Positions 20,989 to 52,793 of a stretch of 64,000 nt of DNA are shown here, piece after piece. Within the stretch, counting starts at the first letter, position 1; each line of letters begins with the position of its first letter. The notes under the pieces are model-generated. The model saw nothing but the letters and a program-made list of their open reading frames with translations, was not told where the DNA came from and did no database searches. The DNA comes from Trypanosoma brucei (lineage: Eukaryota). The position numbers and the translations under genes are program-made. The stretch is taken from assembly GCA_000002445.1 (NCBI GenBank), contig CP000067.1, forward strand, positions 1,376,001 to 1,440,000. Direction: 5' to 3'.

Positions 20989-22206
20989 TCAAAACTGCTT
21001 CCCTCTATTCATCTTTATCTGCATCCGCCTGATGCTGTGGAAGAAGAGGGAATCAATAAGGCCAGTTACCGTGTAAACACCGCCGCCTACGGCGCACAGT
21101 TGCAACACCAGATGCACAATGGATGGATATGGGTGTGTACGCTTGACTGAGACGCGAATGGGAGAGAGATCGTATGATATGAACACTCCTGGTACCACAG
21201 ATGGATCATGTTTGGCATTGTTGTTCTCTCCTCCCTTTGGAGTCTCCCAACTTGGGGTGAAGTGATGCGTCACAGAGTATTGGTTAGATTCTACCACGCG
21301 GCCGCCTCCAACTAATGACTCAATACGGTAAACTGTGGGCACCACCTTCACGAAATACGAGAACCGGCCAATTAGAGGCTCGGATGGATCCGTAGCGCCA
21401 CGCACATTTGCCATCCCGTCCATAGGATTACTTTGTCCTGGAAACCGCTCACCAAACTCCAGGGAATGCACGATATGACTAAGATTCAACTTCTGTATAG
21501 TCTCCCCTTTAAAACTATGCAGGTGTTGACCAAAGAAATTAAACATACGACCCGGTATGAAATGAATGTTTCCCGTCACTCGCGGAACACTAAAGGAGGC
21601 GTGCAAGTTACACCCCTCTGTGGACGCACTTGCCGCCGCCATCTTAAGCCGCTCATGCACGCACTGCACAATACTGGCATCGTCTTCGTGGAACTCCCAC
21701 TGGCGCTCCGCAAATGCGCGCCGCACATCATCACAAGTGTGACAACAGTCCCCTGGATTACTCTCGGCACCGTAGCAACTCGGGCACTTTCCATGCTCAG
21801 CTCCGTTCCCATCAGCTGGTTGCTTCTTCATATCCATGAGTGGTCGTGCCTCACCGAGTGGAACCAATGTATCGGGATTCACACGAACCCTGGCAGTGTC
21901 TGTCAGAACATTTTCAACGTGCTCACCAAAGGCGTCAATGGCGTCCGCCGTCATGAGATCACATGGCACCCGTGGGAACGTAATGTTTACTTTCATGTGC
22001 ATGATACCGCCGATATGCGGATCGACGTACATCTCATGTTGTTCCACGGAGGAAAAGAAGTAACGCACCTCACCCACGACGAGAAAAGTGATTATGAAAA
22101 TGGACGCCATGGAGAGAACACCACCAAGCGCCGTACGCTGCCGGGCATCCCGCAAGAAACGCTCGTCAAACTTCGGGAAGACATCAAGGCGGCTGAGGCC
22201 TTTCAT
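20989..22206 (-). CDS. ERGIC3/Erv46 family ER-to-Golgi vesicle transport protein (COPII cargo receptor component).
   Basis: 405 aa with an ATG start. The N-terminus MKGLSRLDVFPKFDERFLRDARQRTALGGVLSMASIFIITFLVV matches ERGIC3 KQFDAYPKTLEDFRVKTCGGATVTIVSG and its transmembrane segment. The luminal Cys cluster CPSCYGAE...CCHTCDDVRRAF is present. FSYFVKVVPTVY is identical to the ERGIC3 motif. A C-terminal transmembrane segment is followed by GLIDSLFFHS. Confidence 0.85.
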   Translation of the reverse strand: MKGLSRLDVFPKFDERFLRDARQRTALGGVLSMASIFIITFLVVGEVRYFFSSVEQHEMYVDPHIGGIMHMKVNITFPRVPCDLMTADAIDAFGEHVENVLTDTARVRVNPDTLVPLGEARPLMDMKKQPADGNGAEHGKCPSCYGAESNPGDCCHTCDDVRRAFAERQWEFHEDDASIVQCVHERLKMAAASASTEGCNLHASFSVPRVTGNIHFIPGRMFNFFGQHLHSFKGETIQKLNLSHIVHSLEFGERFPGQSNPMDGMANVRGATDPSEPLIGRFSYFVKVVPTVYRIESLVGGGRVVESNQYSVTHHFTPSWETPKGGENNNAKHDPSVVPGVFISYDLSPIRVSVKRTHPYPSIVHLVLQLCAVGGGVYTVTGLIDSLFFHSIRRMQIKMNRGKQF

Positions 22207-24821: not shown

Positions 24822-27800
24822 TCATTTCCGGAACACGAACGTCGCCAGGAGACTTTTCTTGAGAACTTCCATTACCTCGCGAATGTTGTTGGCTTTTGTG
24901 CCGTTAACTTCCTCGAGGAACCACACGGGCTTTGACTGATACGTACGCATGAAGGGGTGCAAACGGCGTGGGTCTGAGAGCCTGTACATCGGTAAGGAAC
25001 CGATGGCCAGCGTTTTAACTGTCCAGTCGAACCGCAGGCCAATATCCCACGGAACATCCAAGCTTTGCCGTCGCACTACCAGTCGGTTCTCGTCAAACTT
25101 TTCGATCGCAACACTGCCGTTTGGAAAGATGAGAGCATTGGCAACCAAAGTTGCCTCCGACGGAGAGGAAACGGGTGTGACCGTGGGCAAACCGCTAACT
25201 CTACTCGTGGAAATGAGCGGCACGTCACCAACAGCTTGCGTGACAGCAGCTGCAGTCACATCACCTACCTTACAGACTGGTCTCTGGTTGCGGGCCATCA
25301 CCTGCTTTCTATATCTTTCTAACTTTTTCCTTGCTCTTTCATGTCGCTGCTGTTCAGATAAAGTGCATTCCTGGTTAGACGCAATCCGCGGAGGCCCGTC
25401 ACTGGCACGATTTCCTCCCAACCCCTCCTCTTCCACAACACATCCTTCTTCGTCGGAATTCTTGCGCCCAGCCCCACCCTCAGCCTTCATGCGCTCAGCC
25501 TCTTCCTCAGCCTTCATGCGCTCAGCCTCTTCTTCAGCCTTCATGCGCTTAACCTCTTCTTCAGCCTTCATGCGCTCAGCATCTTCTTCAGCCTTCATGC
25601 GCTCAGCCTCTTCCTCAGCCTTCATGCGCTCAGCCTCTTCCTCAGCCTTCATGCGCTTAACCTCTTCCTCAGCCTTCATGCGCTCAGCCTCTTCTTCAGC
25701 CTTCATGCGCTCAGCCTCTTCCTCAGCCTTCATGCGCTCAGCCTCTTCTTCAGCCTTCATGCGCTCAGCCTCTTCCTCAGCCTTCATGCGCTCAGCCTCT
25801 TCCTCAGCCTCCACGCGCTCAGCATCTTCTTCAGCCTTCATGCGCTCAGCCTCTTCTTCAGCCTTCATGCGCTCAGCCTCTTCTTCAGCCTTCATGCGCT
25901 CAGCATCTTCTTCAGCCTTCATGCGCTCAGCCTCTTCTTCAGCCTTCATGCGCTCAGCCTCTTCTTCAGCCTTCATGCGCTCAGCATCTTCTTCAGCCTT
26001 CATGCGCTCAGCATCTTCTTCAGCCTTCATGCGCTCAGCATCTTCTTCAGCCTTCATGCGCTCAGCCTCTTCCTTCTTTGTCCAAGCATCACTCTGAAGC
26101 TGGTTACGGGAAACCTTTTCTGCCATTCTGCGTGCACCTTTATTCGCTCGCTTCCGCAGAGTTTTTCGTGCTTCAGCAAGTTTTCGGGCTCTCTCAGCCT
26201 TCTTCCTGGCAGCTTCCTCCTCTGCTCTCTTCCTGGCAGCTTCCTCCTCAGCTTTCTTCCTGGCAGCTTCCTCCTCTGCTTTCTTTCTGGCAGCTTCCTC
26301 CTCTGCCTTCTTCCTGGCAGCTTCCTCCTCAGCCTTCTTCCTGGCAGCTTCCTCCTCTGCTTTCTTCCTGGCTGCTTCCTCCTCAGCCTTCTTCCTGGCA
26401 GCTTCCTCCTCTGCCTTCTTCCTGGCTGCTTCCTCCTCAGCCTTCTTCCTGGCAGCTTCCTCCTCAGCTCTCTTCCTGGCAGCTTCCTCCTCTGCTCTCT
26501 TCCTGGCTGCTTCCTCCTCTGCTTTCTTCCTGGCTGCTTCCTCCTCAGCCTTCTTCCTGGCAGCTTCCTCCTCTGCCTTCTTCCTGGCTGCTTCCTCCTC
26601 AGCCTTCTTCCTGGCAGCTTCCTCCTCAGCCTTCTTCCTGGCAGCTTCCTCCTCAGCTCTCTTCCTGGCAGCTTCCTCCTCAGCCTTCTTCCTGGCTGCT
26701 TCCTCCTCTGCTCTCTTCCTGGCTGCTTCCTCCTCAGCCTTCTTCCTGGCTGCTTCCTCCTCTGCTTTCTTCCTGGCAGCTTCCTCCTCAGCTTTCTTCC
26801 TGGCAGCTTCTTCGGCCTTCATGCGTGCCTTTCGTGCTTGAGCGCGTTTTCGCATCTTTTCAGCCTTCTTCCTGGCTGCTTCCTCCTCTGCTTTCTTCCT
26901 GGCAGCTTCCTCCTCTGCCTTCTTCCTGGCTGCTTCCTCCTCAGCTTTCTTCCTGGCAGCTTCCTCCTCTGCTCTCTTCCTGGCAACTTCCTCCTCTGCT
27001 TTCTTCCTGGCAGCTTCCTCCTCAGCCTTCTTCCTGGCTGCTTCCTCCTCAGCCTTCTTCCTGGCAGCTTCCTCCTCTGCTCTCTTCCTGGCAGCTTCCT
27101 CCTCTGCTCTCTTCCTGGCAGCTTCCTCCTCTGCCTTCTTCCTGGCAGCTTCCTCCTCTGCTCTCTTCCTGGCTGCTTCCTCCTCTGCTTTCTTCCTGGC
27201 AGCTTCTTCGGCCTTCATGCGTGCGTTTCGTGCTTGAGCGCGTTTTCGCATTTTTTCAGCTTTCTTCCTGGCAGCTTCCTCCTCTGCTTTCTTCCTGGCT
27301 GCTTCCTCCTCAGCTTTCTTCCTGGCAGCTTCCTCCTCTGCTTTCTTCCTGGCAGCTTCCTCCTCTGCTTTCTTCCTGGCAGCTTCCTCCTCAGCTTTCT
27401 TCCTGGCAGCTTCCTCCTCAGCTTTCTTCCTGGCTGCTTCCTCCTCAGCTTTCTTCCTGGCAGCTTCCTCCTCTGCTCTCTTCCTGGCTGCTTCCTCCTC
27501 AGCTTTCTTCCTGGCAGCTTCCTCCTCAGCTTTCTTCCTGGCTGCTTCCTCCTCAGCTTTCTTCCTGGCAGCTTCCTCCTCTGCTCTCTTCCTGGCAGCT
27601 TCCTCCTCTGCTTTCTTCCTGGCAGCTTCCTCCTCTGCTTTCTTCCTAGCTGCTTCTTCTGCTTTCTTCGCCGTGGTATCTTTCTCTCTCATTCGACTTC
27701 TCGCAGATAATTTCTTAGCGCGTTTCCTTTCCCCATCTGTTTTCGAGCGCTTTTGCCGAGTTTCCAACCTTTCCATCGAAGCCTTCTTCGTTGCTGTGTT

Positions 27801-28958
27801 AAACGCAGTTTCGTCTGTCACTATGTTCATGTTGTTTTTCTGAAATGTTTTTACATCGACAAATGCGGAGAGAATGGGTCTGCTCACGGAGCTGTTGACG
27901 CGCTTCTGTTTTAGCGCATCACCGTTGTTCCGAGCTCTTTCAACTTCACCGGGGGTTTGACACACAAAATCCTTGCTATATACGGGCCCATCCCCATAAT
28001 TTAATCCCTGTGAATGCATTTCGGGGACGTTTCGGGGAAGCACGCTGGAGATGGCGAGATGTGCGGGGGTCGTCACGCTTTGTTTGGTGTGATTGATGCC
28101 GTTTTTCGTGGAAGTCAACTCCACCACTGACGGAGGGAAAGTTGTGTCGCCTTTGGGCTGCCTGGATTCAAATCCTCGTGGGGCGGCATGCGCTTGATGC
28201 CTTGACCCGTTCAAATCGTAGTGGGTCTCAACCTGTGTTCCCTTCGGCCCTTCGACACAATGAGTTGCGCCGATATTTCCCGTAGCCATTGAGAGCGCTG
28301 TACCACCCCTCCAAAGCCGCTGCCGCTCCTCCAGCGCGCTTACAGTCATCTGGACCGCAGTGGTTTGTACGGGAGCAGCCGTCATAGTGGCTGTTTCTGA
28401 AATTCTGGTGTCCACATCAGGTTTTGGAAGTTGGCACTGCGTCCCCTGGTGTTGTTTCATGCTCTTGAATGCCCCCACATCTCCCTGCGCGGTCGGCTCC
28501 GTTTTTTTCTTTGCTTCTGCAACCAACTTGCTGGCATCATCAGAAACCTCTGTTGTGGGCTTACAGTGCATCCCTAGTTGCTGATGTCCCGTTGTCTTGG
28601 TGCCAACTGTCCCCCTTTCCTTATCAGTTACAGACCGTGACTTGGGGTCAATGCCATCGCTAAACTTCGCCACTCCGGGGCGATGTGCCTCGTCAAGCGA
28701 CTTCGGCGGCATCAATGCGGTTTCGAGTTTGAAAGCAGTTGAATTAACAGTCGGAGCAACTCCCGTCGACTGCACTTCTGGTGTGGCAGCGGTTGGGGGG
28801 TTGACGCCGAAGGGCGTGTTCTGATGCTCATACGTGGCCTTACGCCCCTCATGTTGGTGCTGCGCTACTGTCGGTGATAGCGAAGACTTTGGAGTCACAA
28901 GTTTCTGTGCGTGAGCAGCCGTATGGTGGTGGTGACGGCGATGGCGGCGAGCAGCCAT
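24822..28958 (-). CDS. Giant repetitive protein of about 1379 aa. It has a non-repetitive N-terminal domain, about 60 tandem AEEEAARKK 9-mers and about 25 AERMKAEE(E/D) 9-mers, and a ~200-aa C-terminal domain.
   Basis: Single long ORF on the PTU strand. The track start is GTG, so I trimmed to the ATG (MAARRHRRHHHH...). The 27-nt repeats are perfect and visible in the DNA at 25475-26075 and 26190-27660. The antisense ORFs across this region are repeat artefacts. Confidence 0.75.
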   Translation of the reverse strand: MAARRHRRHHHHTAAHAQKLVTPKSSLSPTVAQHQHEGRKATYEHQNTPFGVNPPTAATPEVQSTGVAPTVNSTAFKLETALMPPKSLDEAHRPGVAKFSDGIDPKSRSVTDKERGTVGTKTTGHQQLGMHCKPTTEVSDDASKLVAEAKKKTEPTAQGDVGAFKSMKQHQGTQCQLPKPDVDTRISETATMTAAPVQTTAVQMTVSALEERQRLWRGGTALSMATGNIGATHCVEGPKGTQVETHYDLNGSRHQAHAAPRGFESRQPKGDTTFPPSVVELTSTKNGINHTKQSVTTPAHLAISSVLPRNVPEMHSQGLNYGDGPVYSKDFVCQTPGEVERARNNGDALKQKRVNSSVSRPILSAFVDVKTFQKNNMNIVTDETAFNTATKKASMERLETRQKRSKTDGERKRAKKLSARSRMREKDTTAKKAEEAARKKAEEEAARKKAEEEAARKRAEEEAARKKAEEEAARKKAEEEAARKKAEEEAARKRAEEEAARKKAEEEAARKKAEEEAARKKAEEEAARKKAEEEAARKKAEEEAARKKAEEEAARKKAEEEAARKKAEKMRKRAQARNARMKAEEAARKKAEEEAARKRAEEEAARKKAEEEAARKRAEEEAARKRAEEEAARKKAEEEAARKKAEEEAARKKAEEEVARKRAEEEAARKKAEEEAARKKAEEEAARKKAEEEAARKKAEKMRKRAQARKARMKAEEAARKKAEEEAARKKAEEEAARKKAEEEAARKRAEEEAARKKAEEEAARKRAEEEAARKKAEEEAARKKAEEEAARKKAEEEAARKKAEEEAARKKAEEEAARKRAEEEAARKRAEEEAARKKAEEEAARKKAEEEAARKKAEEEAARKKAEEEAARKKAEEEAARKKAEEEAARKKAEEEAARKKAEEEAARKRAEEEAARKKAERARKLAEARKTLRKRANKGARRMAEKVSRNQLQSDAWTKKEEAERMKAEEDAERMKAEEDAERMKAEEDAERMKAEEEAERMKAEEEAERMKAEEDAERMKAEEEAERMKAEEEAERMKAEEDAERVEAEEEAERMKAEEEAERMKAEEEAERMKAEEEAERMKAEEEAERMKAEEEVKRMKAEEEAERMKAEEEAERMKAEEDAERMKAEEEVKRMKAEEEAERMKAEEEAERMKAEGGAGRKNSDEEGCVVEEEGLGGNRASDGPPRIASNQECTLSEQQRHERARKKLERYRKQVMARNQRPVCKVGDVTAAAVTQAVGDVPLISTSRVSGLPTVTPVSSPSEATLVANALIFPNGSVAIEKFDENRLVVRRQSLDVPWDIGLRFDWTVKTLAIGSLPMYRLSDPRRLHPFMRTYQSKPVWFLEEVNGTKANNIREVMEVLKKSLLATFVFRK
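25475..26075. repeat. Perfect 27-nt tandem repeats encoding AERMKAEE(E/D), in the C-terminal part of the same protein.
   Basis: Repeated cttcatgcgctcagc(c/a)tcttc(c/t)tcagc units. Confidence 0.9.
26190..27660. repeat. Perfect 27-nt tandem repeats encoding AEEEAARK(K/R). Two interrupters (KAEKMRKRAQARNARMKAEE) at about 26810-26870 and 27180-27250 split the run into three blocks.
   Basis: Visible directly in the sequence (gcagcttcctcctc(a/t)gc(c/t)(t/c)tcttcctg). Confidence 0.9.
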
Positions 28959-29977
28959 AAATTCTTGATTCAGGGATGGGATGAAAAGTGAATGGGAAAA
29001 GAGGGATTTCAACTTCAGAAAGTGAGAAGACGCCAAGGAAAGAAGAGGCCTCAAACCAGAGAGGTTAACAAGCGTCTCTAGGCAATGCCCCAACACACAA
29101 CCGCTGGACACCAGTGAATAAGGCGTTCAAAATAGACTTTAACAAACAGTTTAAACTGAAACTCATACATGCATACATTACATGCCAACTCTTGCAGCAA
29201 CCGAACGAACGGAATGACCTCTTGTATTCGGTGGCAGGCGAGTAACGTAGCATTTGGTAAAAGTTCGCTACAACAAACAAATTCACTGTGTGACTGCCCC
29301 TTCTTGTTTCTTTTCAACGTTGCGCATCGGCCTTCTTGACAAATACGTTGCTCACGGGCACACTCCTTCACATATAAGAGTTGAAGGAGAATATATGAAA
29401 GGGTACTGGACAGGAAATGGACACTGACAGGCATCACTTTTTGTGTAGTTTACCGGTGTAATAATTTCCATAGAGAAACCCACAACCCACGTTGCCCAAG
29501 TCTGTGCGGCGGGAAGAAATGCAGGGGGAAAGGAAGTAATAGCATACCTGCGTAAGCTATGCGTCAACGGTGCTTACTGACGTCGATCCCTTTGGCACGC
29601 GGCGGCGGCAGCTTCAACTTCAGATCCAAAAAATATGTTTGACAAAGGACGGTTTGAGTCACTTCCCTGTTGTTATAACATGTCACAGTTCAATAACCAG
29701 CAAAAGATGTTGACTTTTTTTTTGTTGTCCCCAGTAGCCTCAGCCGATACTTTAACCTTCAAACCCGGAAGATTGGTTCACCCCGCACGCTTCAGCACCC
29801 TCGCTTATTTCATTCCCACACAGCACAACCTCCCGTTCCGCAGCTGAGCAGTGCTGAAACACAAAGAAAACAAAAGGAAATGCACATTGTACTGATTGGT
29901 CGACGAAACGCACCAAAAACAAAAAACGGATCGGCAGGGAGTTAATAACTCTTGGAAGCGCTGTTTTGAAAAAAAAA

Positions 29978-30775
29978 TCAAAAACAATTGCATGTCGCTT
30001 TCTTCACCTTAGTTTCCTTCACAGGACGACAAATGCCCACTATCTTTGCCCTCAACTCCGCGGTCGAAACCTCGACAAACTCAATGTTGCTCTCGCGGAG
30101 AAAGTCGGCGACTGCCTTCTTCAACTTTGCACCCTCAGGTCCCGAGTGCCGACCGGCACCGGTAATAATTTGCATTTCAGCCACCTCACCCACGGAGGCC
30201 TCCCGCAGGCGTTCAACACGCGACTTCAACATATTAACTGCCTCTTCTACTCGCAGGCCATGCATGTCAAAGTAGTCCTTCCCTTTACCCTTGTTTTCGT
30301 TGTTGTGCCTTGCAATGGCATTGGCAGCCTCCTGGTTCTTCAAACGCATTTGCTCGCCCGCCTTCTTTGCCTCTTCCAGCGTTAAGCTGACCTCATGCTT
30401 CTTTCCTTCACCGCGTAACCGAGTAACCTCATCAAGTAATTCTGCACGCTTGGTTGCCCACGCTGCTGCATCCTTACGCAGTCGACTCCCCTCAGGTCCC
30501 TCATAATCGGGGTTAATGGCTGCGTTTATGATGTCACGCACACGACTCGTAGCGTCACTCAACTTCTCCTTGTTGTCAGCGGTAATGCAAACCCTGCAGC
30601 CATCGCTTATGGTAATTGTTGCTCCCGTTTCACACTGCAGACTCTTAATGGTGGACCCGCCCTCGCCAATGACGTGACCAATAAACTCCGGTGGCGCTTC
30701 TATCACCTCCTGCAGTGGATTCATTTCCCCATTTGCTCCTCCCTCGCCGCCTTCCCGGCACCCCGTGACATGCAT
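29978..30775 (-). CDS. KH-domain plus Smr-domain protein. Putative RNA-binding endonuclease.
   Basis: About 265 aa; the ATG is at MHVTG. The KH core is PEFIGHVIGEGGSTIKSLQCETGATITI. The C-terminal Smr signature is DMHGLRVEEAVNMLKSRV...MQIITGAGRHSGPEGAKLKKAVADFL. Confidence 0.75.
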   Translation of the reverse strand: MHVTGCREGGEGGANGEMNPLQEVIEAPPEFIGHVIGEGGSTIKSLQCETGATITISDGCRVCITADNKEKLSDATSRVRDIINAAINPDYEGPEGSRLRKDAAAWATKRAELLDEVTRLRGEGKKHEVSLTLEEAKKAGEQMRLKNQEAANAIARHNNENKGKGKDYFDMHGLRVEEAVNMLKSRVERLREASVGEVAEMQIITGAGRHSGPEGAKLKKAVADFLRESNIEFVEVSTAELRAKIVGICRPVKETKVKKATCNCF

Positions 30776-32271: not shown

Positions 32272-33069
32272 TTACGCACGGCAATAATAATGTACATTCT
32301 TTCCTACCAACACGTGTTCATCATCCTCTGAAGCTCCATCAGGACTACTAAACCAGAGTCGTGAGTGGGTACTGTTGTCATCCGTTTCATAATACAAGCT
32401 ATTCTCTACCATCGCGCCGTCATCACCACGATACAAATTTCCCTCAGCGAAGATAAGCAGCGACACAAGTAGACGCGCTCGTTTGTTGTAAAGGAAGTAA
32501 TGCTGTGAGAAAAGCGCCCGTGACGCCATGGGATCACAACTGGGCGAGGCAAAGCGGAAGTACTCACATCCCTGACTTGCATCAGATGCGTGCTCCGTTA
32601 CGCGGACCCAAAACTGTCCTACAGCCGGACCGCACGATGAGGGAAATGAGCGCAGTGTGTTGTTGACCTCCGCCCGCACATGGGCCTCATCACATGGCAC
32701 AAAATCCTCCTCCGTCAGAACAGAGAAGTCATAACCGTCCTCACCATAAATGCTGTTTAGCGCGGCCACGAGAAACACCAACCGATCGTCGATGTCACTT
32801 GGCTCGACGGGCTCCGTAGGCACTACATGCGCACTGTCATCTGATAAATTCAGCAGCGGCGGAACCGGGGCATTTGCACTGCACAGTGGTCTAAGCGGTG
32901 GAGTTGTTTTGTTCGCGTATTCTGCGATACTGGCGGCGAGCAGCTTCTTCTTGCGGGTACAACGACATGTGAAAGCCTCCAGTCGCACCGTCATGAGACA
33001 TCCTTGTGCCTCCACACCCTGAAGCAAAGAATTCAAAAACTCAAAACTCTCGAGGGGAACGAACTCCAT
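32272..33069 (-). CDS. MAF1: Maf1-like repressor of RNA polymerase III
   Basis: The first ATG gives MEFVPLESFEFLNSLLQGVE...RLEAFTCRCTRKKKLL, compared with human MAF1 MKLLENSSFEAINSQL...[22 protein letters not shown]. The C-terminus has WF..PDGASEDDEHVL and SQHYFLYNKRARLLVSLL, which matches the Maf1 signature (W…NYFFYNKK.KRI). Confidence 0.65.
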   Translation of the reverse strand: MEFVPLESFEFLNSLLQGVEAQGCLMTVRLEAFTCRCTRKKKLLAASIAEYANKTTPPLRPLCSANAPVPPLLNLSDDSAHVVPTEPVEPSDIDDRLVFLVAALNSIYGEDGYDFSVLTEEDFVPCDEAHVRAEVNNTLRSFPSSCGPAVGQFWVRVTEHASDASQGCEYFRFASPSCDPMASRALFSQHYFLYNKRARLLVSLLIFAEGNLYRGDDGAMVENSLYYETDDNSTHSRLWFSSPDGASEDDEHVLVGKNVHYYCRA

Positions 33070-33807
33070 CAGAACGTCCACGAAATGTAAACCAACTCGA
33101 TAACGGTTTTCTGATTTTTTTTTAAAAACTATTGGATACGATTTGGAAATAAAGAAAACGCACTAGCACGCGGAAAAAACTTGCACTGATTTAAACAAGT
33201 GCACACAAGTGAATCGGAAACGCAAACACCTGGACGTGCAGCCAAAGAGATGTGCCGCCCCGCCACTGGCTGATTTCCACAAGCAATCCTTTTGGATGCA
33301 ATATTAAAATACGCTCAAAAGCCAGCTTTTGGCCCCTTTTCGTGTTGGTGTCTCAGAGCTCTACCAAAATATGTGGGTATATATACCTAAAAGCAGTGTA
33401 AATGCTTCTATTCCTGTGTCACGGTGAGCACAGTTATTTGATCTTGTATGACTAAGCGGACGGGATGCCGTCTAGGGGAAGGTTTCTACATATATACACG
33501 AGCCAGATGGAAGGGAAAGATGGAATGAAGAAGAAGTGGAATTGCACACAACGAGTTGGAATAAATCACCTCTGTTCGCATAAATTAGGTTACCCGATGA
33601 GAAGAAAAATAGATGTATGGAAATATGACAAGAAGGTACGTGATGCATGTAACAGGTACGAATGCTTTTCCGCCCCCCGTCCATAAACGCGCGAAGCACG
33701 ATGTCACGTCTTTGTTTCGTTTCGTCGGTTGTTGTCCCCCTTCTCTATCAGTATTCTATGAGTTGCATAACAGTACATTTATGTTACCCCTTTCGGAAGC
33801 AGCCGCC

Positions 33808-37204: not shown

Positions 37205-37846
37205 TCACAACAGTTCAACTTCGGCACCGTGGCCTTCCAGCAACACCTTCAGTTTTTCGGCATCTCCCCGGGGTAAAGCCGTGGCTACCATCCCTGGACA
37301 CCGCTCGACAGCCGCCTTTGCCTCCTGTAAAGCCAAACCTGTTACCGCCCGCAGCTCCTTAATAAGTTTTACCTTGCTTCCTGCGGGGTATCCCTTTAGG
37401 CTAACATCCACAGTGGCTTTCTCTACGACTTTCTTTACAACCGTGGCATCGGCAGTGGAACCATTACCGGCAGAACCATCAGCAGCGTCAGGAACTGTTG
37501 GAGTAGCCCCAACGACCCGTCCGCCTCCGCACGTGCCGGGTGCCAATCCCTGAAGCATCATTTCTTCACACGACACGGGAGCGGTGCCGGGTGGCCACGG
37601 CATGCTGTTGGATACTAGGTCATGAAATTTGCGCATTGTTTGCAAGTCCATGTTGACGTAAGCATCAGCTATAGCTTCAACAGTTTCAGCACTCTCCCGA
37701 AGCGGCATCAACGCCGTACCCCGAGGGGTAACACCACTGGGAACACCAATGCTAAATGAGCGACACACGCACGGGATTCCGTTGGTGACGCGCAAATTAC
37801 CCGAAACTCCCCTCATTGGAAACAAGATGGAGTGAAATCGCCGCAT
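37205..37846 (-). CDS. Mitochondrial ribosomal protein bL12 (L7/L12)
   Basis: 213 aa with an ATG start. The C-terminal domain KVKLIKELRAVTGLALQEAKAAVERCPGMVATALPRGDAEKLKVLLEGHGAEVELL aligns with bacterial L7/L12 [28 protein letters not shown]...AEEIKKKLEEAGAEVELK. The N-terminus is rich in Arg and Ser, as expected for a presequence. Confidence 0.8.
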   Translation of the reverse strand: MRRFHSILFPMRGVSGNLRVTNGIPCVCRSFSIGVPSGVTPRGTALMPLRESAETVEAIADAYVNMDLQTMRKFHDLVSNSMPWPPGTAPVSCEEMMLQGLAPGTCGGGRVVGATPTVPDAADGSAGNGSTADATVVKKVVEKATVDVSLKGYPAGSKVKLIKELRAVTGLALQEAKAAVERCPGMVATALPRGDAEKLKVLLEGHGAEVELL

Positions 37847-38370: not shown

Positions 38371-40314
38371 TCAGGAGAGATTGCTCAACTTCTCCTCAAC
38401 GGAACTTGTCAGTGGCATCCCGTGGGCCATTACCGGTGCTGTCGCTGCAGAGTGCTGCGCTCCTGCGGGAAGCGCTCGATCTGCACGTGCTGACCGCCGC
38501 GTATTGCGCTGCAGGTACGGGTCCTGACTGAGTTGCATCACGTCGTAGCGGTCCGCAGGGTGGTATTCGAGGCACTTTTGTATTAAATCTTTTGCCTCCT
38601 GCGAGACACGCGGGGTGTCGGGAAACGTTAAGGTGTGTGCAGAAGAAACAATGAGTTTGTTTTGCCATATTTGTTGCTGTGACTCGCCCTCGGCGAATGG
38701 ACGGCGACCAAATAGCATCTGATAGAATATAACACCGCACGACCACACGTCAACTTTGTTACTGATCCGAGGAGTTGCTGTGGTATCGAAGCATTCGGGC
38801 GGAAGATACCAATATGTTCCCGCCCCCTGTGACGTCAGTTCTATGGTTGGATTGTCGTTTGTCCCGTCTCGCTTCGGGATGAGCTTACTGAGACCAAAGT
38901 CCGTTATTTTGATTAGCAAACTGCTTTGGTTACTAGAATGGAAAAGGATATTCGCTGGCTTAAGATCGTAGTGGATGACCGGCTGATCCTGTGCTGCGAA
39001 ATAGCGCAACGCACTGACTACTTGCATAATGATTAACCGCGCCTCCACCTCACGGAGGGTGCCACAACGCTTCAGATGCGTGTCAAGATCGGTCCCCGCG
39101 CTAAATTCCATGACCGATACGAACGTTGCCGTGCCGTGGTCGAAGGCATCGAAGAGCCGTGTAAGGTGCGGGTGTTCCAGCATTCGCATAATTTTTAGCT
39201 CACGAACCGCACGGTCCCGGTAGTGTTGTCGCACCTGTTGTGACCATTCCCTCTGTACGCGATGGACTTTGCACGCAACGTACCGCGCCTCCTGCAAGTC
39301 AAAGGCTTTCCACACCTCAGAGAAGCCTCCTTTGCCGAGCAGATGCATCATTACATATCGACCATTGTGACCGAGAGCTGGCACAGCCACGAAGGCAGAG
39401 GCATCTTCGTCATTTACGCGACGGATCTCCTTAAGAAACACTTTTTTCTCGTGATTTAAGTCTTGTTGCTGCTGTTTTAGCGACTGGATGGCGCTACCCA
39501 AGGCTGCAAACTCTGCGGTGTACAGCAGAGCTGCCTCCTGCGCCTCCATCAGTGCCGCTTGAACTTCCGGTGCCATCGAGTCCTCGTCGTTGCTCCTCAG
39601 TATCTGCCGCGCCCGCCTTTCAGCCGTTTTTTTGAGCTCCTCCACTTCATCACGGCGTACACTAAGCTCCTCAAGCTGCATGGTGAGCTGCCTCATCTTG
39701 TTGCCCTCGACCCACACTTCGCGCCCGTTACTATGCCACACTGCTATCTGTCCAAGCTCAAAATGCTTCAAATGTAAGGCACGTCTGGCATCGCATCTCC
39801 CTTGACGGGCCGCTCGCAACATTTCCTGACGAAGAACAACCTGGTAGCGGTTATTACGGTCCATTACCTCCTGTAGTTGTGCCTGCGTGTTGATAAGAGT
39901 TGTCTCCCTTTCGGACATCCGCGTCTCCACGGCTGCCAGTTTCTCGCGAAGCTCATCGATCTGCGCGTCTCTGTCAGCGAGCTCTTTGCGGAATACCGCA
40001 GTGTCGTTCACCAATCCATATGAAGGTAGCGTCGCCTGCTTTAATTTACGTTCAGACGGGTGAGTGCCTCCGGGACTGTTTCCGCTGTTGCCACCGCTGA
40101 TGCTAACAGCAGTTGGACCACTCACATATTCGTACATGCACGCGCTGTCACCTGGGATCTCAGGAGATAACCTCGATGCTGAGTTGGATCTCGCACCTTT
40201 CGACTCCCAGTACGACTCACTCAGTCGCTGCTCTTCGACTGACTCCGCGGCTTCGGCACCCGGAGGCGCCTCGCGTGACCGCTTGCGTTGGGGGTTAACC
40301 TCAATGTTTTTCAT
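38371..40314 (-). CDS. TLK: Tousled-like protein kinase (TLK)
   Basis: About 648 aa. The ATG (MKNIEV) is the first Met after the GTG track start. A coiled-coil N-terminal half is followed by a kinase domain that tracks human TLK closely. [32 protein letters not shown] matches [93 protein letters not shown] and [17 protein letters not shown] all match as well. Confidence 0.85.
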   Translation of the reverse strand: [647 protein letters not shown]

Positions 40315-40710
40315 GTTTGTTGATCGGTCGTCACACACCTGTGTGTTATGACGTAAAGGAAAAGCTACGAAGAATCAGAAGAGTAGTGCAGAACCACGAA
40401 TACAGCACAAAAATAAATGCAGATGGGGTTGTAACAGAGGTAAAGCAGTTTACCCTGGTTACATCAGCTACAGATTTAGTTGTCGATGATATATGTATTT
40501 TTGCACAAGTGTAAACTATGGGAAAAGGTATGTTCGGTGGAAAAAAAAATAAGTCGTATTATAGTAAAACGATAAAAAACCTTCTGTGCAATTGACTAAC
40601 AGACCTATATACTCCGTCAGAGCGTTTGCCTATCCTGTGGATAGAAAGGTCCTTCTCCTATCTGGAGACGGGGGATAAGGGAAATCATAAATCATGTCGT
40701 GGTCGTTTAA

Positions 40711-49329: not shown

Positions 49330-50478
49330 TCAATGCTGAAAACAAGGTAGCGTGCCGCTACCGGGATACAACCATCGAACCGCCGACGGTTTATCTCCTC
49401 CTTCCCCAACAGGAAAGATATCGAACAACTCATTGTAATGTTCCTCACTAACATGGTGTATCACAACAGATTTATTTGAAATGTATTTTCTAACGCTACC
49501 AGGACCCGCATTGTGAAACCGGCACGCTTTCGTATCCACACTTATTAGGTTTCTGTACACTACCTTTTCTCTCAGTATCATTCCAACCATCACATCTTCA
49601 TAGAACATGCCAAGATCAAGAAAGTCAAAATAGTCCCACATAGAAAAGGGCATGTTCACTAGACGCTCAAGAGGTTTATACGAAATGATGGCTTGTGCAG
49701 TGTCCCTGGAGAGAGTAATGCAATATCCGTTCACATATGTAAGTTGGTTACGCCGCCATATCCGGTTATAGTAGTTGTAACGACCCATATACAAACCATG
49801 ACGAGGCATTACACGAAGGTCCGCAAGGTATTTTGGAACACGAATAAATATGTCATCATCACCCTTCACAATGTAACTTACGTTAGGAAACATGTGAAGA
49901 GCAAATCGAAGCCACAAATATGTTTTCCGGCTCATCGCAACCTCAGCCTCAATTCCCCAGTTTCCATTCTCACCAATCTTCTTCCGTGTGGATGGAGAGA
50001 CATCATTTGTTGGTAGTGTAATAATGTCATGTGTACGTGCGGCCTCTTCCTTTAGTGAGTGTGAAATCAAATAACTGTTTGACTGATGTGGTGCGAGAAG
50101 ATATAATGGCAGGAGACTCCCACTAAAGTTGTTTGATCGTGTGGCCACGCCACTATACTTCCAGCATGTCTGTCGCTGCAAGTCACGCCGCCTGCTTCTC
50201 TCACTGTTGTCCACAGAAGGAATTCCAAGGACGGCTAGGAATCTTTGTGCCTTCCACACGGCAGCAACATTAGACGGAACGAACATCAAATATTCATCCT
50301 CGTCTATCGGTTGTGAAACTCCAGCCTGATTTTCATCTAAAAAAGTAGATACCACATGAATTCTATGTAAGTTGCAGCAGATAATCAAGAGTGACATCAC
50401 AAGTAGAAGTATCACTGCTATGTCTGCTGTACGTGGCCTCCTCCTCGCTTGTGTTGGTCGCATCTTCAGCGGTGACAT
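49330..50478 (-). CDS. UDP-Gal/UDP-GlcNAc-dependent glycosyltransferase (GT67/beta3GT-like), array copy 1, with a divergent C-terminus.
   Basis: This copy matches the array consensus from the ATG (MSPLKMRPTQARRRPRTADIAVILLLVMSLLIICC) through the DxD motif YIVKGDDDIFIRV and the EDVMVGMIL motif. The last ~70 aa differ (…ISVDTKACRFHNAGPGSVRKYISNKSVVIHHVSEEHYNELFDIFPVGEGGDKPSAVRWLYPGSGTLPCFQH). DNA identity to the other units breaks at about 49545. Confidence 0.8.
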   Translation of the reverse strand: MSPLKMRPTQARRRPRTADIAVILLLVMSLLIICCNLHRIHVVSTFLDENQAGVSQPIDEDEYLMFVPSNVAAVWKAQRFLAVLGIPSVDNSERSRRRDLQRQTCWKYSGVATRSNNFSGSLLPLYLLAPHQSNSYLISHSLKEEAARTHDIITLPTNDVSPSTRKKIGENGNWGIEAEVAMSRKTYLWLRFALHMFPNVSYIVKGDDDIFIRVPKYLADLRVMPRHGLYMGRYNYYNRIWRRNQLTYVNGYCITLSRDTAQAIISYKPLERLVNMPFSMWDYFDFLDLGMFYEDVMVGMILREKVVYRNLISVDTKACRFHNAGPGSVRKYISNKSVVIHHVSEEHYNELFDIFPVGEGGDKPSAVRWLYPGSGTLPCFQH

Positions 50479-51034
50479 GTCTACAAAGAAGTTATCGAGG
50501 GAAAAACAATTTAAATTGGCAAATGCGAGAATTCGCGCAGTCGTTAGCAACACAATTAGCTGACAAATTCATGTTCATCACAATTCAATGTAGACCGCTA
50601 TGAAAGAACTCATAAAGGTCGTATGAGGCATGAGGATATACGTCCACGAGGGAGACATTTGAAATCATGAATATCTCAACAGTTATTAAACTTTACAACT
50701 TAAGTAGGACATCCACTCCCAAACTAGGCAATATTTTAAAAGTTACATTTGGGGGAAAGGGACCGTTAATCACGGTTTCGAACGATACCCAAAAACTGTT
50801 CATAACCAAACCTCCCAGTTTTGACCGAAACGAAACGGCGTAACTGTCATGTGATCAACAAATGAGTTCCAAGGAAAAATAATCAACGAACGGTATAGTA
50901 TGCCGTCGGTTATTACACACAGACACACACACACAGAAAGTAACTAAAGTGTTTCAGGAATAGGAGTGACGCTAATACAATCCTAACAAACTATAGGGTG
51001 AGGGATCTCATAGTTCCCAAGCAACCTCAATAAT

Positions 51035-52237
51035 TCAGGCCCTCTTACGCCAAAAGGGAAAAGAAGGTAGGATTTCTCTTTTCCGTCCAAGTCGGAATTC
51101 ACACTGCATCGCCGCCCAATTGCTATTCAACCACATTAGCTTTGAGGGTGCCGGTGGTATTACACCTTCAGGAAAGTAGTCCATTAACATTTCGTAATCG
51201 GCTTCCTGTATGTGGTGTATCACAACAGACATGTTCCTAACGCTCTTCTTCACACCAAACTTGCCCGCATTGTGAAAGTGACAACGACCCATCTCCACAC
51301 TTATTAGGTTTCTGTACACTACCTTTTCTCTCAGTATCATTCCAACCATCACATCTTCATAGAACATGCCAAGATCAAGAAAGTCAAAATAGTCCCACAT
51401 AGAAAAGGGCATGTTCACTAGACGCTCAAGAGGTTTATACGAGATGATGGCTTGTGCAGTGTCCCTGGAGAGAGTAATGCAATATCCGTTCACATATGTA
51501 AGTTGGTTACGCCGCCATATCCGGTTATAGTAGTTGTAACGACCCATATACAAACCATGACGAGGCATTACACGAAGGTCCGCAAGGTATTTTGGAACAC
51601 GAATAAATATGTCATCATCACCCTTCACAATGTAACTTACGTTAGGAAACATGTGAAGAGCAAACCGAAGCCACAAATATGTTTTCCGACTCATCGCAAC
51701 CTCAGCCTCAATTCCCCAGTTTCCATTCTCACCAATCTTCTTCCGTGTGGATGGAGAGACATCATTTGTTGGTAGTGTAATAATGTCATGTGTACGTGCG
51801 GCCTCTTCCTTTAGTGAGTGTGAAATCAAATAACTGTTTGACTGATGTGGTGCGAGAAGATATAATGGCAGGAGACTCCCACTAAAGTTGTTTGATCGTG
51901 TGGCCACGCCACTATACTTCCAGCATGTCTGTCGCTGCAAGTCACGCCGCCTGCTTCTCTCACTGTTGTCCACAGAAGGAATTCCAAGGACGGCTAGGAA
52001 TCTTTGTGCCTTCCACACGGCAGCAACATTAGACGGAACGAACATCAAATATTCATCTTCGTCTATCGGTTGTGAAACTCCAGCCTGATTTTCATCTAAA
52101 AAAGTAGATACCACATGAATTCTATGTAAGTTGCAGCAGATAATCAAGAGTGACATCACAAGTAGAAGTATCACTGCTATGTCTGCTGTACGTGGCCTCC
52201 TCCTCGCTTGTGTTGGTCGCATCTTCAGCGGTGACAT
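51035..52237 (-). CDS. UDP-Gal/UDP-GlcNAc-dependent glycosyltransferase (GT67/beta3GT-like), array copy 2.
   Basis: About 400 aa from the first ATG; the track start at 52310-52312 is GTG. It has type II topology, with a short basic cytoplasmic tail and a single transmembrane segment. The DxD motif is GDDD, and the beta3GT ED(V)xxG motif is YEDVMVGMIL. This is one unit of the 1759-bp tandem repeat. Confidence 0.85.
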   Translation of the reverse strand: MSPLKMRPTQARRRPRTADIAVILLLVMSLLIICCNLHRIHVVSTFLDENQAGVSQPIDEDEYLMFVPSNVAAVWKAQRFLAVLGIPSVDNSERSRRRDLQRQTCWKYSGVATRSNNFSGSLLPLYLLAPHQSNSYLISHSLKEEAARTHDIITLPTNDVSPSTRKKIGENGNWGIEAEVAMSRKTYLWLRFALHMFPNVSYIVKGDDDIFIRVPKYLADLRVMPRHGLYMGRYNYYNRIWRRNQLTYVNGYCITLSRDTAQAIISYKPLERLVNMPFSMWDYFDFLDLGMFYEDVMVGMILREKVVYRNLISVEMGRCHFHNAGKFGVKKSVRNMSVVIHHIQEADYEMLMDYFPEGVIPPAPSKLMWLNSNWAAMQCEFRLGRKREILPSFPFWRKRA

Positions 52238-52793
52238 GTCTACAAAGAAGTTATCGAGGGAAAAACAATTTAAATTGGCAAATGCGAGAATTCGCGCAGT
52301 TGTTAGAAACACAATTAGCTGACAAATTCATGTTCATCACAATTCAATGTAGACCGCTATGAAAGAACTCATAAAGGTCGTATGAGGCATGAGGATATAC
52401 GTCCACGAGGGAGACATTTGAAATCATGAATATCTCAACAGTTATTAAACTTTACAACTTAAGTAGGACATCCACTCCCAAACTAGGCAATATTTTAAAA
52501 GTTACATTTGGGGGAAAGGGACCGTTAATCACGGTTTCGAACGATACCCAAAAACTGTTCATAACCAAACCTCCCAGTTTTGACCGAAACGAAACGGCGT
52601 AACTGTCATGTGATCAACAAATGAGTTCCAAGGAAAAATAATCAACGAACGGTATAGTATGCCGTCGGTTATTACACACAGACACACACACACAGAAAGT
52701 AACTAAAGTGTTTCAGGAATAGGAGTGACGCTAATACAATCCTAACAAACTATAGGGTGAGGGATCTCATAGTTCCCAAGCAACCTCAATAAT

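What the first reader, a model, noticed from the sequence alone, without database searches (positions are those of the whole stretch)
29978..30775. KH–Smr domain architecture suggests an RNA-directed endonuclease
An N-terminal type-I KH core (IGHVIGEGGSTIKSL) is fused to a C-terminal Smr domain with the canonical DxHGL…TGxGxHS motifs. Smr domains are nucleases. In yeast and human, Cue2 and N4BP2 are Smr domains that cleave mRNA at collided ribosomes, and in those proteins targeting comes from ubiquitin-binding domains. Here a KH domain would supply direct RNA binding instead. In a parasite that regulates almost everything post-transcriptionally, a KH-guided Smr nuclease is a plausible RNA-decay or quality-control factor that has not been characterised.
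Basis: partly seen in the sequence, partly recalled or inferred. Interest (0 to 1): 0.5.

Follow-up and report, generated by a model that had tools for sequence, protein, structure and literature searches.

The report
Predicted lipid-anchored KH–Smr RNA nuclease
This Trypanosoma brucei gene encodes a small, uncharacterised protein that joins an RNA-binding KH domain to an intact Smr nuclease domain, and it belongs to a widespread protist family whose members usually also carry a predicted lipid membrane anchor, suggesting an RNA-cutting enzyme tethered to membranes.

Summary
Window 29978-30775 (minus strand) encodes a 265-aa protein identical to T. b. brucei TREU927 Q584J3/XP_844661. Pfam scores KH_1, DUF1771 and Smr above their curated cut-offs. 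AlphaFold gives a confident model (pLDDT 92): a type-I KH fold, a helical hairpin and a Smr fold. The catalytic DxH, the GxG loop and the KH GXXG loop are present and near-invariant in the family.

This is not a new discovery. A public source already names the protein 'KH domain/DUF1771/Smr domain containing protein, putative'. The architecture is not parasite-specific either: it occurs in kinetoplastids, Heterolobosea, red and green algae and Amoebozoa. Kinetoplastids also keep a Cue2-like Smr nuclease with ubiquitin-binding domains (CSBP/ZC3H27), so KH does not simply replace ubiquitin targeting.

One is the DUF1771 extension typical of N4BP2/NONU-1-type Smr domains. The other is a lipid-anchor signal: 37 of 79 Smr-containing relatives carry a C-terminal CaaX box (mostly CCaaM) or an N-terminal myristoylation/palmitoylation motif, against 3 of 72 KH-only controls. 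T. brucei has a polybasic tail ending in CNCF.

Best reading: a membrane-tethered, metal-independent endoribonuclease. No function has been tested.

The parts
29978..30775 (-). Complete CDS (265 codons plus TGA stop) of the KH-DUF1771-Smr protein. It is identical to T. b. brucei TREU927 Q584J3 / XP_844661.1 / AAZ11102.1.
30722..30724 (-). Alternative start codon, Met18. It aligns with Met1 of the T. congolense orthologue. Residues 1-20 are disordered in the model.
   Evidence: inference
30515..30715 (-). Type-I KH domain, aa 21-87 (beta-alpha-alpha-beta-beta-alpha). The Pfam KH_1 match covers aa 23-80.
30656..30667 (-). GXXG loop of the KH domain (G37-E38-G39-G40). G37 is invariant and G40 is at least 90% conserved in the family.
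30497..30514 (-). Conserved linker motif NPDYEG (aa 88-93) between the KH domain and the helical hairpin. KH-less relatives begin at this motif.
30299..30499 (-). DUF1771, the 'N-ext' of family-2 Smr domains. It is modelled as a charged two-helix hairpin, aa 93-159.
30038..30274 (-). [quoted passage not shown] The Pfam Smr match covers aa 170-229.
30257..30268 (-). Catalytic-type DxHG motif (D170-M-H172-G173). D, H and G are invariant in the family.
30143..30163 (-). TGxGxHS motif (T205-G-A-G-R-H-S211), the substrate-binding loop. G206, G208 and H210 are invariant and S211 is at least 90% conserved.
29993..30037 (-). Disordered basic tail, aa 247-261 (GICRPVKETKVKKAT). The 20 residues before the terminal CNCF (aa 242-261) contain 7 Lys/Arg.
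29981..29992 (-). C-terminal CaaX-like tetrapeptide CNCF, a predicted prenylation and/or S-acylation site. Orthologues end in CCCF, CCATM, LCAVM, CCSIM, CCVCM and CCVVM.

Best explanation
The gene encodes a small cytosolic protein built as KH - NPDYEG linker - DUF1771 helical hairpin - Smr - flexible basic tail - Cys-rich CaaX-like end.

Shown by computation: all three domains are real and confidently folded. The Smr domain is of the eukaryotic N4BP2/NONU-1/Cue2 ('family 2', DUF1771-associated) type. It keeps the DxH and GxG elements that are needed for RNA cleavage in characterised relatives. The protein belongs to an old, widely scattered protist family. About half of its Smr-containing relatives carry a two-signal lipid anchor at one end or the other, on a variable linker. 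The C-terminal type is Cys-Cys-a-a-Met, often with a basic stretch. The N-terminal type is Met-Gly plus Cys or a basic stretch.

Inferred mechanism: the protein is held on the cytosolic face of a membrane by lipid modification of its tail. In T. brucei the signal is a polybasic stretch plus C-x-C-F, which is a weaker signal than in other kinetoplastids. The KH domain grips single-stranded RNA. The Smr domain with its N-extension cuts that RNA by metal-independent DxH catalysis, as Cue2, NONU-1 and SmrB do on ribosome-bound mRNA. It has no ubiquitin-binding domain. Recruitment would therefore rest on membrane location and direct RNA or ribosome contact rather than on ubiquitin marks. The ubiquitin-dependent role more likely belongs to the separate paralogue ZC3H27/CSBP. 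Which RNAs it cuts, which membrane it sits on, and whether collided ribosomes are the substrate all remain unknown.
For: Domains and fold.

Family-2 Smr identity: (N4BP2 with its N-extension, E=3.8e-24). Adjacency of DUF1771 is described as typical of family-2 Smr and called the 'N-ext' of NONU-1.

Active-site conservation: D170, H172, G173, G206, G208 and H210 are invariant, and S211 is at least 90% conserved, in 36 sequences. S211 is also invariant in the 15-sequence sub-alignment.

Functional meaning of DxH and GxG: the Cue2 D348/H350 mutant loses cleavage. The NONU-1 DxH>AxA mutant is null and D579N is functional, which points to a metal-independent mechanism. In the SmrB-disome structure DXH and GXG lie next to the mRNA.

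Precedents for 'RNA-binding domain + Smr = RNA endonuclease': LdCSBP (CCCH) and PPR-SMR SOT1.

Family breadth: 1768 hits at E<=1e-3. In the best 152, 79 contain Smr and most of those also contain 1-3 KH domains. All 36 aligned members score Pfam KH_1 and DUF1771, and 31 score Smr.

Lipid anchors: a CaaX-like end in 22/79 Smr-containing hits vs 1/72 KH-only hits (p=1.9e-6). A myristoylation consensus in 15/79 vs 2/72. Either signal in 37/79 vs 3/72 (p=6e-10). X=Met in 17 of 23 and Cys at -5 in 16 of 23. The tails are 20-134 aa long and not conserved, yet the terminal box is kept. Nine of 15 Met-Gly forms have an extra Cys at positions 3-6, and at least two others (P0036, P0111) have a strongly basic stretch. 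Angomonas ends in ...KKKKEKSKCCVVM. The T. brucei farnesyltransferase prefers X=Met or Gln.
Against: No experiment on this protein or any orthologue was found.

The T. brucei terminal box CNCF (and T. congolense CCCF) is not a good match to the reported preference of T. brucei farnesyltransferase (X = Met or Gln). T. brucei also lacks geranylgeranyltransferase I. Lipidation of the T. brucei protein itself is therefore less certain than for Leishmania, Angomonas, T. vivax, T. rangeli or T. theileri.

About half of the Smr-containing relatives show neither signal. Some of these may be fragments.

The GXXG loop is GEGG, with one acidic residue, which may weaken nucleic-acid binding.

The middle residue of the GxG loop is Ala where N4BP2 has Arg (TGRG vs TGAG). 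Cue2 R402A reduces activity, but R402 could not be mapped onto this protein because no Cue2 sequence was available.

Isolated Smr domains of N4BP2 and LdCSBP also cut DNA in vitro.

The lipid-signal statistics count 50%-identity cluster representatives, which are phylogenetically related, so the p-values overstate independence.
Confidence: 0.5

Rival explanations
1. A soluble, KH-guided cytosolic endoribonuclease. KH selects particular mRNAs or sequence motifs, Smr cuts them, and the Cys-rich end of the T. brucei protein is not lipidated or has no role in targeting.
For: The KH and Smr domains are intact. CNCF is a poor match to the reported T. brucei farnesyltransferase preference, and the organism lacks geranylgeranyltransferase I. 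About half of the relatives lack any lipid signal. LdCSBP shows that an RNA-binding domain can give an Smr nuclease sequence-specific RNA cleavage.
Against: The terminal C-x-C-F is kept between T. brucei and T. congolense although the rest of the tail diverges. Every other named kinetoplastid orthologue ends in a canonical CaaM box. KH-less DUF1771-Smr-CaaX forms exist, so the anchor is linked more tightly to Smr than KH is.
Confidence: 0.25
2. A non-catalytic RNA- or ribosome-binding adaptor. The Smr domain serves as a ribosome or RNA docking module, as reported for B. subtilis MutS2, which splits stalled ribosomes without cutting mRNA. On this reading the protein recruits or anchors ribosomes or mRNPs at a membrane.
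For: [quoted passage not shown] The Ala in the GxG loop and the acidic residue in the GXXG loop could mean weak catalysis or weak binding. The lipid anchor plus an RNA-binding domain would suit a tether.
Against: DxH is invariant across a very divergent family, which is hard to explain without catalysis. The domain is much closer to the N4BP2/NONU-1 type than to MutS2.
Confidence: 0.12
3. A DNA-nicking enzyme acting in repair, recombination or kinetoplast DNA metabolism, with KH binding single-stranded DNA.
For: Smr domains of MutS2, N4BP2/B3BP and YdaL nick DNA in vitro, and the isolated LdCSBP Smr domain cuts both DNA and RNA. Automatic annotation calls several relatives 'DNA-nicking Smr family endonuclease'. 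Some KH domains bind ssDNA (hnRNP K and FUBP structures among the fold hits).
Against: The protein has no MutS core. Orthologues start directly at the KH domain with no organellar presequence. Lipid-anchor signals do not fit a chromatin or kDNA enzyme. In vivo evidence for family-2 Smr proteins (Cue2, NONU-1) points to mRNA. Full-length LdCSBP cuts only RNA.
Confidence: 0.06

Closest known systems
[quoted passage not shown]
   Same: Same Smr subtype: the profile matches N4BP2 at E=3.8e-24, including part of the N-extension. Same DUF1771 'N-ext' next to Smr. Same DxH and GxG(x)HS motifs.
   Different: No CUE, UBA or UIM ubiquitin-binding domains and no P-loop kinase domain. The whole 265 aa is accounted for by KH, DUF1771, Smr and the tail. 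It has a KH domain and a predicted lipid anchor instead. The GxG middle residue is Ala rather than the Arg of N4BP2.
LdCSBP / ZC3H27 (kinetoplastid cycling-sequence binding protein)
   Same: A kinetoplastid protein that combines an RNA-binding module with a family-2 Smr domain. RNA endonuclease activity has been reported for it.
   Different: LdCSBP uses two CCCH fingers and has UBA and CUE domains, and its activity is modulated by ubiquitination. The protein in the window has KH, no ubiquitin-binding domain and a Cys-rich tail. They are paralogues, not orthologues.
PPR-SMR proteins of plastids (e.g. SOT1)
   Same: The same design logic: a sequence-reading RNA-binding array joined to a Smr nuclease.
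   Different: These have PPR repeats instead of KH, are targeted to organelles, and have no DUF1771 or lipid anchor.
Bacterial SmrB and MutS2
   Different: Sequence similarity is only marginal (MutS2 E of about 0.03-0.07, SmrB not detected). They belong to a different Smr clade and have no KH, DUF1771 or lipid anchor.
KH-plus-RNA-enzyme proteins: N4BP1 (KH + NYN RNase), ASCC1 (KH + 2H phosphoesterase), PNPase and Rrp4 (KH feeding an exonuclease)
   Different: The catalytic domains are unrelated. The likeness is architectural only. The functions of N4BP1 and ASCC1 are cited from general knowledge and were not tested here.
Ras-type CaaX anchors (polybasic or Cys + CaaX) and Src-type Met-Gly-Cys anchors
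   Same: The family's ends match the classic two-signal patterns: CC-a-a-M with or without a basic stretch, or MGC / MG plus a basic stretch.
   Different: These anchors are known on GTPases, kinases and flagellar proteins. No paper in the searchable library mentions both an Smr domain and myristoylation or prenylation. The T. brucei box CNCF is atypical.

Membership tests
KH domain, type I (Pfam PF00013) | Profile score above the curated threshold | tested here: met
   39 bits vs cut-off 21.5, E=6.7e-10. All 36 family members score KH_1.
KH domain, type I (Pfam PF00013) | beta-alpha-alpha-beta-beta-alpha topology with a GXXG loop between helices 1 and 2 | tested here: met
   AF2 model: E21-26, H29-36, H38-50, E53-57, E61-66, H69-87. 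GXXG = G37-E-G-G40. TM 0.82-0.90 to FUBP1 KH2 and Nova-2 KH3.
KH domain, type I (Pfam PF00013) | Binds single-stranded RNA or DNA | not testable with these tools
   Needs a binding assay or CLIP. The Glu in the GXXG loop is a caveat.
Smr domain (Pfam PF01713) | [quoted passage not shown] | tested here: met
Family-2 (eukaryotic N4BP2/NONU-1-type) Smr | LDXH motif at the end of strand 1 and a central TGXG motif | tested here: met
   F-D-M-H (aa 169-172; Leu is replaced by Phe in trypanosomatids and is Leu, Ile, Met or Val in most relatives) and T-G-A-G (aa 205-208).
Family-2 (eukaryotic N4BP2/NONU-1-type) Smr | DUF1771 / N-ext helical extension immediately upstream of Smr | tested here: met
   DUF1771 scores 37.3 bits vs cut-off 28.7. 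36 of 36 family members score it. It is described as typical of family 2 and of NONU-1.
Cue2/NONU-1/N4BP2 no-go-decay endonuclease (functional class) | Ubiquitin-binding domains (CUE/UBA/UIM) that recruit the nuclease to ubiquitinated collided ribosomes | tested here: not met
   Pfam finds only KH, DUF1771 and Smr down to E=1. The model leaves no unassigned folded region.
Cue2/NONU-1/N4BP2 no-go-decay endonuclease (functional class) | DxH-dependent cleavage of mRNA on collided ribosomes | not testable with these tools
   The DxH residues are present. The activity needs biochemistry or genetics.
LdCSBP / ZC3H27 | Two CCCH zinc fingers plus UBA and CUE domains upstream of Smr | tested here: not met
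   No zf-CCCH, UBA or CUE hits.
CaaX prenylation substrate | Cys at position -4 from the C-terminus | tested here: met
   C262 in ...TCNCF. Conserved in 22 of 79 Smr-containing relatives vs 1 of 72 controls.
CaaX prenylation substrate | X residue preferred by the organism's farnesyltransferase (Met or Gln for T. brucei) | tested here: not met
   X is Phe in T. brucei and T. congolense. It is Met in 17 of 23 CaaX-bearing relatives, including T. vivax, T. rangeli, T. theileri, Leishmania and Angomonas.
CaaX prenylation substrate | Actual attachment of farnesyl and/or palmitate | not testable with these tools
   The published T. brucei CaaX list covers only named proteins. The palmitoylome paper is not held.

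The most novel reading that the evidence does not exclude
KH-DUF1771-Smr proteins form a previously unrecognised, ancient family of lipid-anchored endoribonucleases. They would carry out ubiquitin-independent RNA cleavage at membrane surfaces. Possible roles are surveillance of mRNAs translated next to a membrane, or destruction of membrane-associated foreign RNA such as viral replication complexes. The membrane anchor has been moved repeatedly between the N-terminus (myristoyl/palmitoyl) and the C-terminus (farnesyl/palmitoyl) during evolution. In trypanosomatids this enzyme would work alongside the ubiquitin-guided paralogue ZC3H27.
Probability: 0.3. Interest if true: 0.7.

Novelty: new variant of a known kind. 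Interest (0 to 1): 0.5.

Why it matters
Smr nucleases have recently become central to how cells deal with stalled and collided ribosomes. The characterised eukaryotic examples discussed here (Cue2, NONU-1, LdCSBP) carry ubiquitin-binding domains.

A conserved subfamily with no ubiquitin-binding domain, a KH domain and a lipid anchor would point to a spatially restricted branch of RNA cleavage at membranes. Nothing of this kind was found in the searchable literature.

Trypanosomes control gene expression almost entirely after transcription, so an uncharacterised, apparently active endonuclease is a sensible target for study. The prediction is cheap to test: N-terminal versus C-terminal tagging, Cys-to-Ser tail mutants and DxH mutants.

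If the protein proves to be soluble and its KH domain merely supplies generic RNA affinity, it is an ordinary additional member of the Smr family.

Tried and rejected
(1) Finding the TriTrypDB gene ID, in order to look up localisation, RNAi fitness, the mRNA-bound proteome and the palmitoylome. Searches through the neighbouring Maf1 gene and through 'Smr domain' + Tb927 gave no ID. Only the accessions Q584J3 / XP_844661.1 / AAZ11102.1 were obtained.

(2) The published T. brucei CaaX list contains only proteins with putative names. The absence of this 'hypothetical' protein is therefore uninformative.

(3) The T. brucei palmitoylome paper (PMC3067466) and the SOT1 paper (PMC5338415) are not held.

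(4) The AFDB fold library was unavailable. Taxon labels for full-length structural matches could not be obtained that way.

(5) The two profile searches with the word-indexed protein database were of limited use. The full-length profile was swamped by KH-only proteins such as FUBP, BTR1 and vigilin-like proteins. The DUF1771-Smr profile returned only 10 hits. The exhaustive HMMER search was the informative one, but it carries no names. Only about 30 representatives could be labelled, and most are unnamed metagenome or transcriptome sequences.

(6) Mapping Cue2 R402 onto this protein was not possible because no Cue2 sequence was available. It may correspond to A207 (the GxG middle residue, Arg in N4BP2) or to R209.

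(7) An organellar (kinetoplast) role was considered and rejected, because orthologues start directly at the KH domain with no presequence.

(8) The longer TTG-initiated ORF (to 30796) and the antisense ORFs were rejected as mechanical.
Full report
1. WHAT IS IN THE SEQUENCE

The finding's coordinates frame an open reading frame on the minus strand. The ATG is at 30775, the TGA stop is at 29978-29980, and the protein is 265 aa. The 272-aa TTG-initiated version and the three plus-strand ORFs that overlap it are mechanical products of ORF listing.

All large ORFs in the 64-kb window lie on the minus strand, as expected for one trypanosomatid polycistronic unit. A pyrimidine-rich stretch followed by AG dinucleotides at -49, -43 and -38 precedes the ATG. 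Met1 is therefore probably the first AUG of the spliced mRNA (inference). Met18 aligns with the start of the T. congolense orthologue, and residues 1-20 are disordered in the model, so a 248-aa product is also possible.

The protein is identical to T. brucei brucei TREU927 Q584J3 / XP_844661.1 / AAZ11102.1. It differs by one residue (S45C) from the T. b. gambiense DAL972 copy.

2. DOMAINS AND FOLD

Pfam scores three domains above their curated cut-offs:
- KH_1, aa 23-80, 39 bits
- DUF1771, aa 98-159, 37.3 bits
- Smr, aa 170-229, 35.2 bits

AlphaFold2, run with a 36-sequence alignment, gives mean pLDDT 92.1 and pTM 0.81:
- aa 21-87: a beta-alpha-alpha-beta-beta-alpha type-I KH fold
- aa 93-158: a long two-helix hairpin
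- aa 247-265: a low-confidence tail with no secondary structure

3. ACTIVE-SITE AND BINDING MOTIFS

In an alignment of 36 full-length relatives, the invariant positions are G37 (first Gly of GXXG), D170, H172, G173 (DxHG), A179, G206, G208 (GxG) and H210. G40 and S211 are at least 90% conserved. S211 is also invariant in the 15-sequence DUF1771-Smr sub-alignment.

That criterion is not met.

The literature supports the weight placed on these residues.
- Combined D348/H350 mutation abolishes Cue2 cleavage in vivo.
- NONU-1 DxH>AxA behaves as a null, while D579N is functional, which argues for a metal-independent mechanism.
- In the SmrB-disome structure the DXH and GXG motifs lie against the mRNA.

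Two caveats apply.
- The T. brucei GXXG loop reads GEGG. Relatives have GKGG, GRGG, GPGG, GERG or GKGA.
- The middle residue of GxG is Ala where N4BP2 has Arg (TGRGNHS vs TGAGRHS). Cue2 R402A weakens activity and R402K does not. I could not map R402 onto this protein.

4. WHICH KIND OF SMR

A profile of the DUF1771-Smr part of the family hits N4BP2 at E=3.8e-24, and the match includes part of the helical extension. MutS2 scores only E of about 0.03-0.07 and SmrB is not hit.

Together with the LDXH/TGXG motifs and the adjacent DUF1771, this puts the domain in eukaryotic 'family 2'. The 2011 review describes DUF1771 as typical of family 2, and the NONU-1 study calls it the 'N-ext' of the Smr domain. 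Family 2 is the lineage of N4BP2, NONU-1, Cue2 and Ypl199c.

5. DISTRIBUTION

An exhaustive HMMER search of 1.84 billion representatives gave 1768 hits at E<=1e-3 and 17 at E<=1e-30. Among the best 152, 79 contain the Smr region, and most of those also have one to three KH domains. All 36 aligned members score Pfam KH_1 and DUF1771, and 31 score Smr.

Named sources include:
- T. brucei, T. congolense, T. vivax, T. rangeli, T. theileri, Leishmania martiniquensis and Angomonas deanei (kinetoplastids)
- Acrasis kona (Heterolobosea)
- Rhodella and Porphyridium (red algae)
- Tetraselmis (green alga)
- Protostelium (Amoebozoa)

The architecture is therefore old and widely scattered among protists. 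It is not an adaptation of a parasite that relies on post-transcriptional control.

It is also already in public annotation: one source names this very protein 'KH domain/Domain of unknown function (DUF1771)/Smr domain containing protein, putative'.

6. THE KINETOPLASTID CONTEXT

Kinetoplastids have another Smr protein, LdCSBP/ZC3H27. It has two CCCH fingers plus UBA and CUE ubiquitin-binding domains. Its Smr domain has reported RNA endonuclease activity that is modulated by ubiquitination. The full-length protein cuts RNA sequence-specifically, whereas the isolated Smr domain cuts both RNA and DNA.

That protein, not the one in the window, has the Cue2-like combination of ubiquitin binding and Smr. 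The KH-Smr protein is a second, differently targeted paralogue.

7. AN UNEXPECTED FEATURE: PREDICTED LIPID ANCHORS

The four kinetoplastid orthologues first retrieved all end in a Cys-rich tetrapeptide, in three of them close to basic residues:
- T. brucei: ...KETKVKKATCNCF
- T. congolense: ...KKVEETKFCCCF
- Leishmania: ...RRSTLKSCCVCM
- An unnamed relative: ...KKKKEKKEEAQKSCCAVM

Further named orthologues follow the same pattern:
- Angomonas: ...KKKKEKSKCCVVM
- T. vivax: ...CCATM
- T. rangeli: ...LCAVM
- T. theileri: ...CCSIM

Across the best 152 hits, the counts are:

| Signal | Smr-containing (n=79) | KH-only controls (n=72) | Fisher p |
|---|---|---|---|
| CaaX-like end | 22 | 1 | 1.9e-6 |
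| N-terminal myristoylation consensus (MG{EDRKHPFYW}xx[STAGCN]{P}) | 15 | 2 | 1.6e-3 |
| Either signal | 37 | 3 | 6e-10 |

Details:
- Of 23 CaaX-like ends (the 22 above plus Angomonas P0153), 17 have X=Met and 16 have a further Cys at -5.
- These ends close tails of 20-134 residues that are otherwise not conserved.
- Two of the 23 (P0127 and P0091) are probably chance matches.
- Of the 15 Met-Gly forms, nine have a Cys at positions 3-6, and at least two others (P0036, P0111) have a strongly basic stretch.

These are the classic two-signal membrane anchors: farnesyl + palmitoyl or basic, and myristoyl + palmitoyl or basic.

In a rough neighbour-joining tree of the DUF1771-Smr region the two anchor types are interleaved, which suggests repeated exchange. 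Some relatives, including the T. theileri gene model, lack KH but keep DUF1771-Smr-CaaX and begin at the conserved NPDYEG motif.

The representatives are related to one another, so the p-values overstate independence. The stronger argument is that the terminal box is retained on divergent tails.

I found no paper that mentions both 'Smr domain' and myristoylation or prenylation.

For T. brucei itself the signal is weaker. Its farnesyltransferase is reported to prefer X=Met or Gln, and the organism lacks geranylgeranyltransferase I. CNCF is therefore non-optimal, although there are 7 Lys/Arg in the 20 residues before it. The shared C-x-C-F of T. brucei and T. congolense still suggests selection.

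8. MOST LIKELY MECHANISM

Shown: three intact domains, family-2 Smr identity, conserved catalytic-type residues, a wide family, and enrichment of lipid-anchor signals.

Inferred: the protein sits on the cytosolic face of a membrane through its lipidated, basic tail. KH holds single-stranded RNA. The Smr domain with its N-extension cleaves that RNA by the metal-independent DxH mechanism. Recruitment does not depend on ubiquitin.

Still open: whether the substrate is mRNA on stalled or collided ribosomes, as for Cue2, NONU-1 and SmrB, or free RNA; and which membrane is involved.

I put about 0.5 on this composite statement. The components are roughly:
- That it is a KH-DUF1771-Smr protein: about 0.99
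- That it is an active RNA endonuclease: about 0.6
- That most family members are lipid-anchored: about 0.8
- That the T. brucei protein is: about 0.5

9. RIVALS

- A non-catalytic tether or ribosome-binding adaptor: about 0.12. It is disfavoured by the invariant DxH.
- A DNA nickase: about 0.06. It is disfavoured by the family-2 identity, the lack of a targeting presequence and the anchor signals. It cannot be excluded from sequence alone, because isolated Smr domains cut DNA in vitro.

10. NOVELTY AND SCORE

The domain architecture is real but already annotated. The idea of 'RNA-binding domain + Smr = targeted RNase' has precedents in LdCSBP and PPR-SMR proteins.

What appears new is twofold. 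KH-DUF1771-Smr proteins form a broad protist family, and many of them carry lipid anchors at alternative ends. That makes this a new variant of a known kind.

Interest is 0.5. The prediction is moderately surprising for specialists in translation quality control and is directly testable, but it rests entirely on sequence inference and is weakest for the T. brucei member itself.

Noticed in passing
window 29981-30037 (-); P0002-P0005, P0007, P0009, P0012, P0018, P0023, P0153: The C-terminal CaaX-like box follows a basic tail in the T. brucei protein. A canonical CC-a-a-M box is present in nearly all other kinetoplastid-type relatives. Other lineages carry N-terminal MGC or MG-plus-basic motifs instead. 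Together these predict a lipid-anchored Smr family.
   Followed up: yes
P0011, P0014 (T. theileri XP_028878566), P0019, P0047, P0054, P0063, P0070, P0078, P0097: These relatives lack the KH domain but keep DUF1771, Smr and the CaaX box. Their sequences begin at, or within about 12 residues of, the conserved (N)PDYEG motif. I could not tell whether they are real KH-less forms or truncated gene models.
   Followed up: partly
P0015, P0017, P0026, P0031, P0036, P0048, P0093: These relatives, several with 2-3 KH domains, end exactly at the last Smr strand with ...(I/V)(H/Y/C)C, so that a cysteine is the final residue. Five of them cluster together in the rough tree. This is not a CaaX box, and its meaning is unknown.
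   Followed up: no
window 30497-30514 (-): The motif NPDYEG(P)EG between the KH domain and DUF1771 is highly conserved in the kinetoplastid and algal branches. It lies upstream of the stretch matched by the Pfam DUF1771 model (aa 98-159). Its function is unknown.
   Followed up: partly
P0006 (Logan contig, 346 aa): In a close relative of the Leishmania/Angomonas group, ...KS-EPAVVFH... continues for about 50 residues at the point where its relatives have ...KS-CCAVM-stop. Either the CaaX box and stop codon have been lost, or this is an assembly error.
   Followed up: no
window 30641-30643 (-), codon 45: There is a single amino-acid difference inside the KH domain: Ser45 in the window/TREU927 and Cys in T. 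b. gambiense DAL972.
   Followed up: no
window 24822-29111 (-): The next gene downstream in the transcription unit encodes a protein of about 1400 aa. Most of it consists of long runs of two 9-residue repeat units, AEEEAARKK and AEE(E/D)AERMK. It has a C-terminal DUF7759 domain (E=2.6e-35).
   Followed up: partly
window 51035-59348 (-), with related ORFs at 49330-50553 and 59830-60843: A tandem array of five 425-aa galactosyltransferase-like genes that are 99-100% identical, with a period of 1759 bp. The array is flanked by ORFs of 407 and 337 aa that were not compared with the array copies.
   Followed up: partly
window 32272-33081, 37205-37846, 38371-40338, 20989-22206 (all -): Neighbouring genes: a Maf1 RNA polymerase III repressor directly upstream, a ribosomal L7/L12-type protein, a protein kinase, and an ERGIC/ERV-family vesicle protein. 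None has an evident functional link to the KH-Smr gene.
   Followed up: partly
window 30722-30775 (-): The first 17 codons (MHVTGCREGGEGGANGE) have no counterpart in the orthologues and are disordered in the model. Met18 aligns with the T. congolense start codon. The annotated start may therefore be too far upstream, or the extension may be specific to T. brucei.
   Followed up: partly
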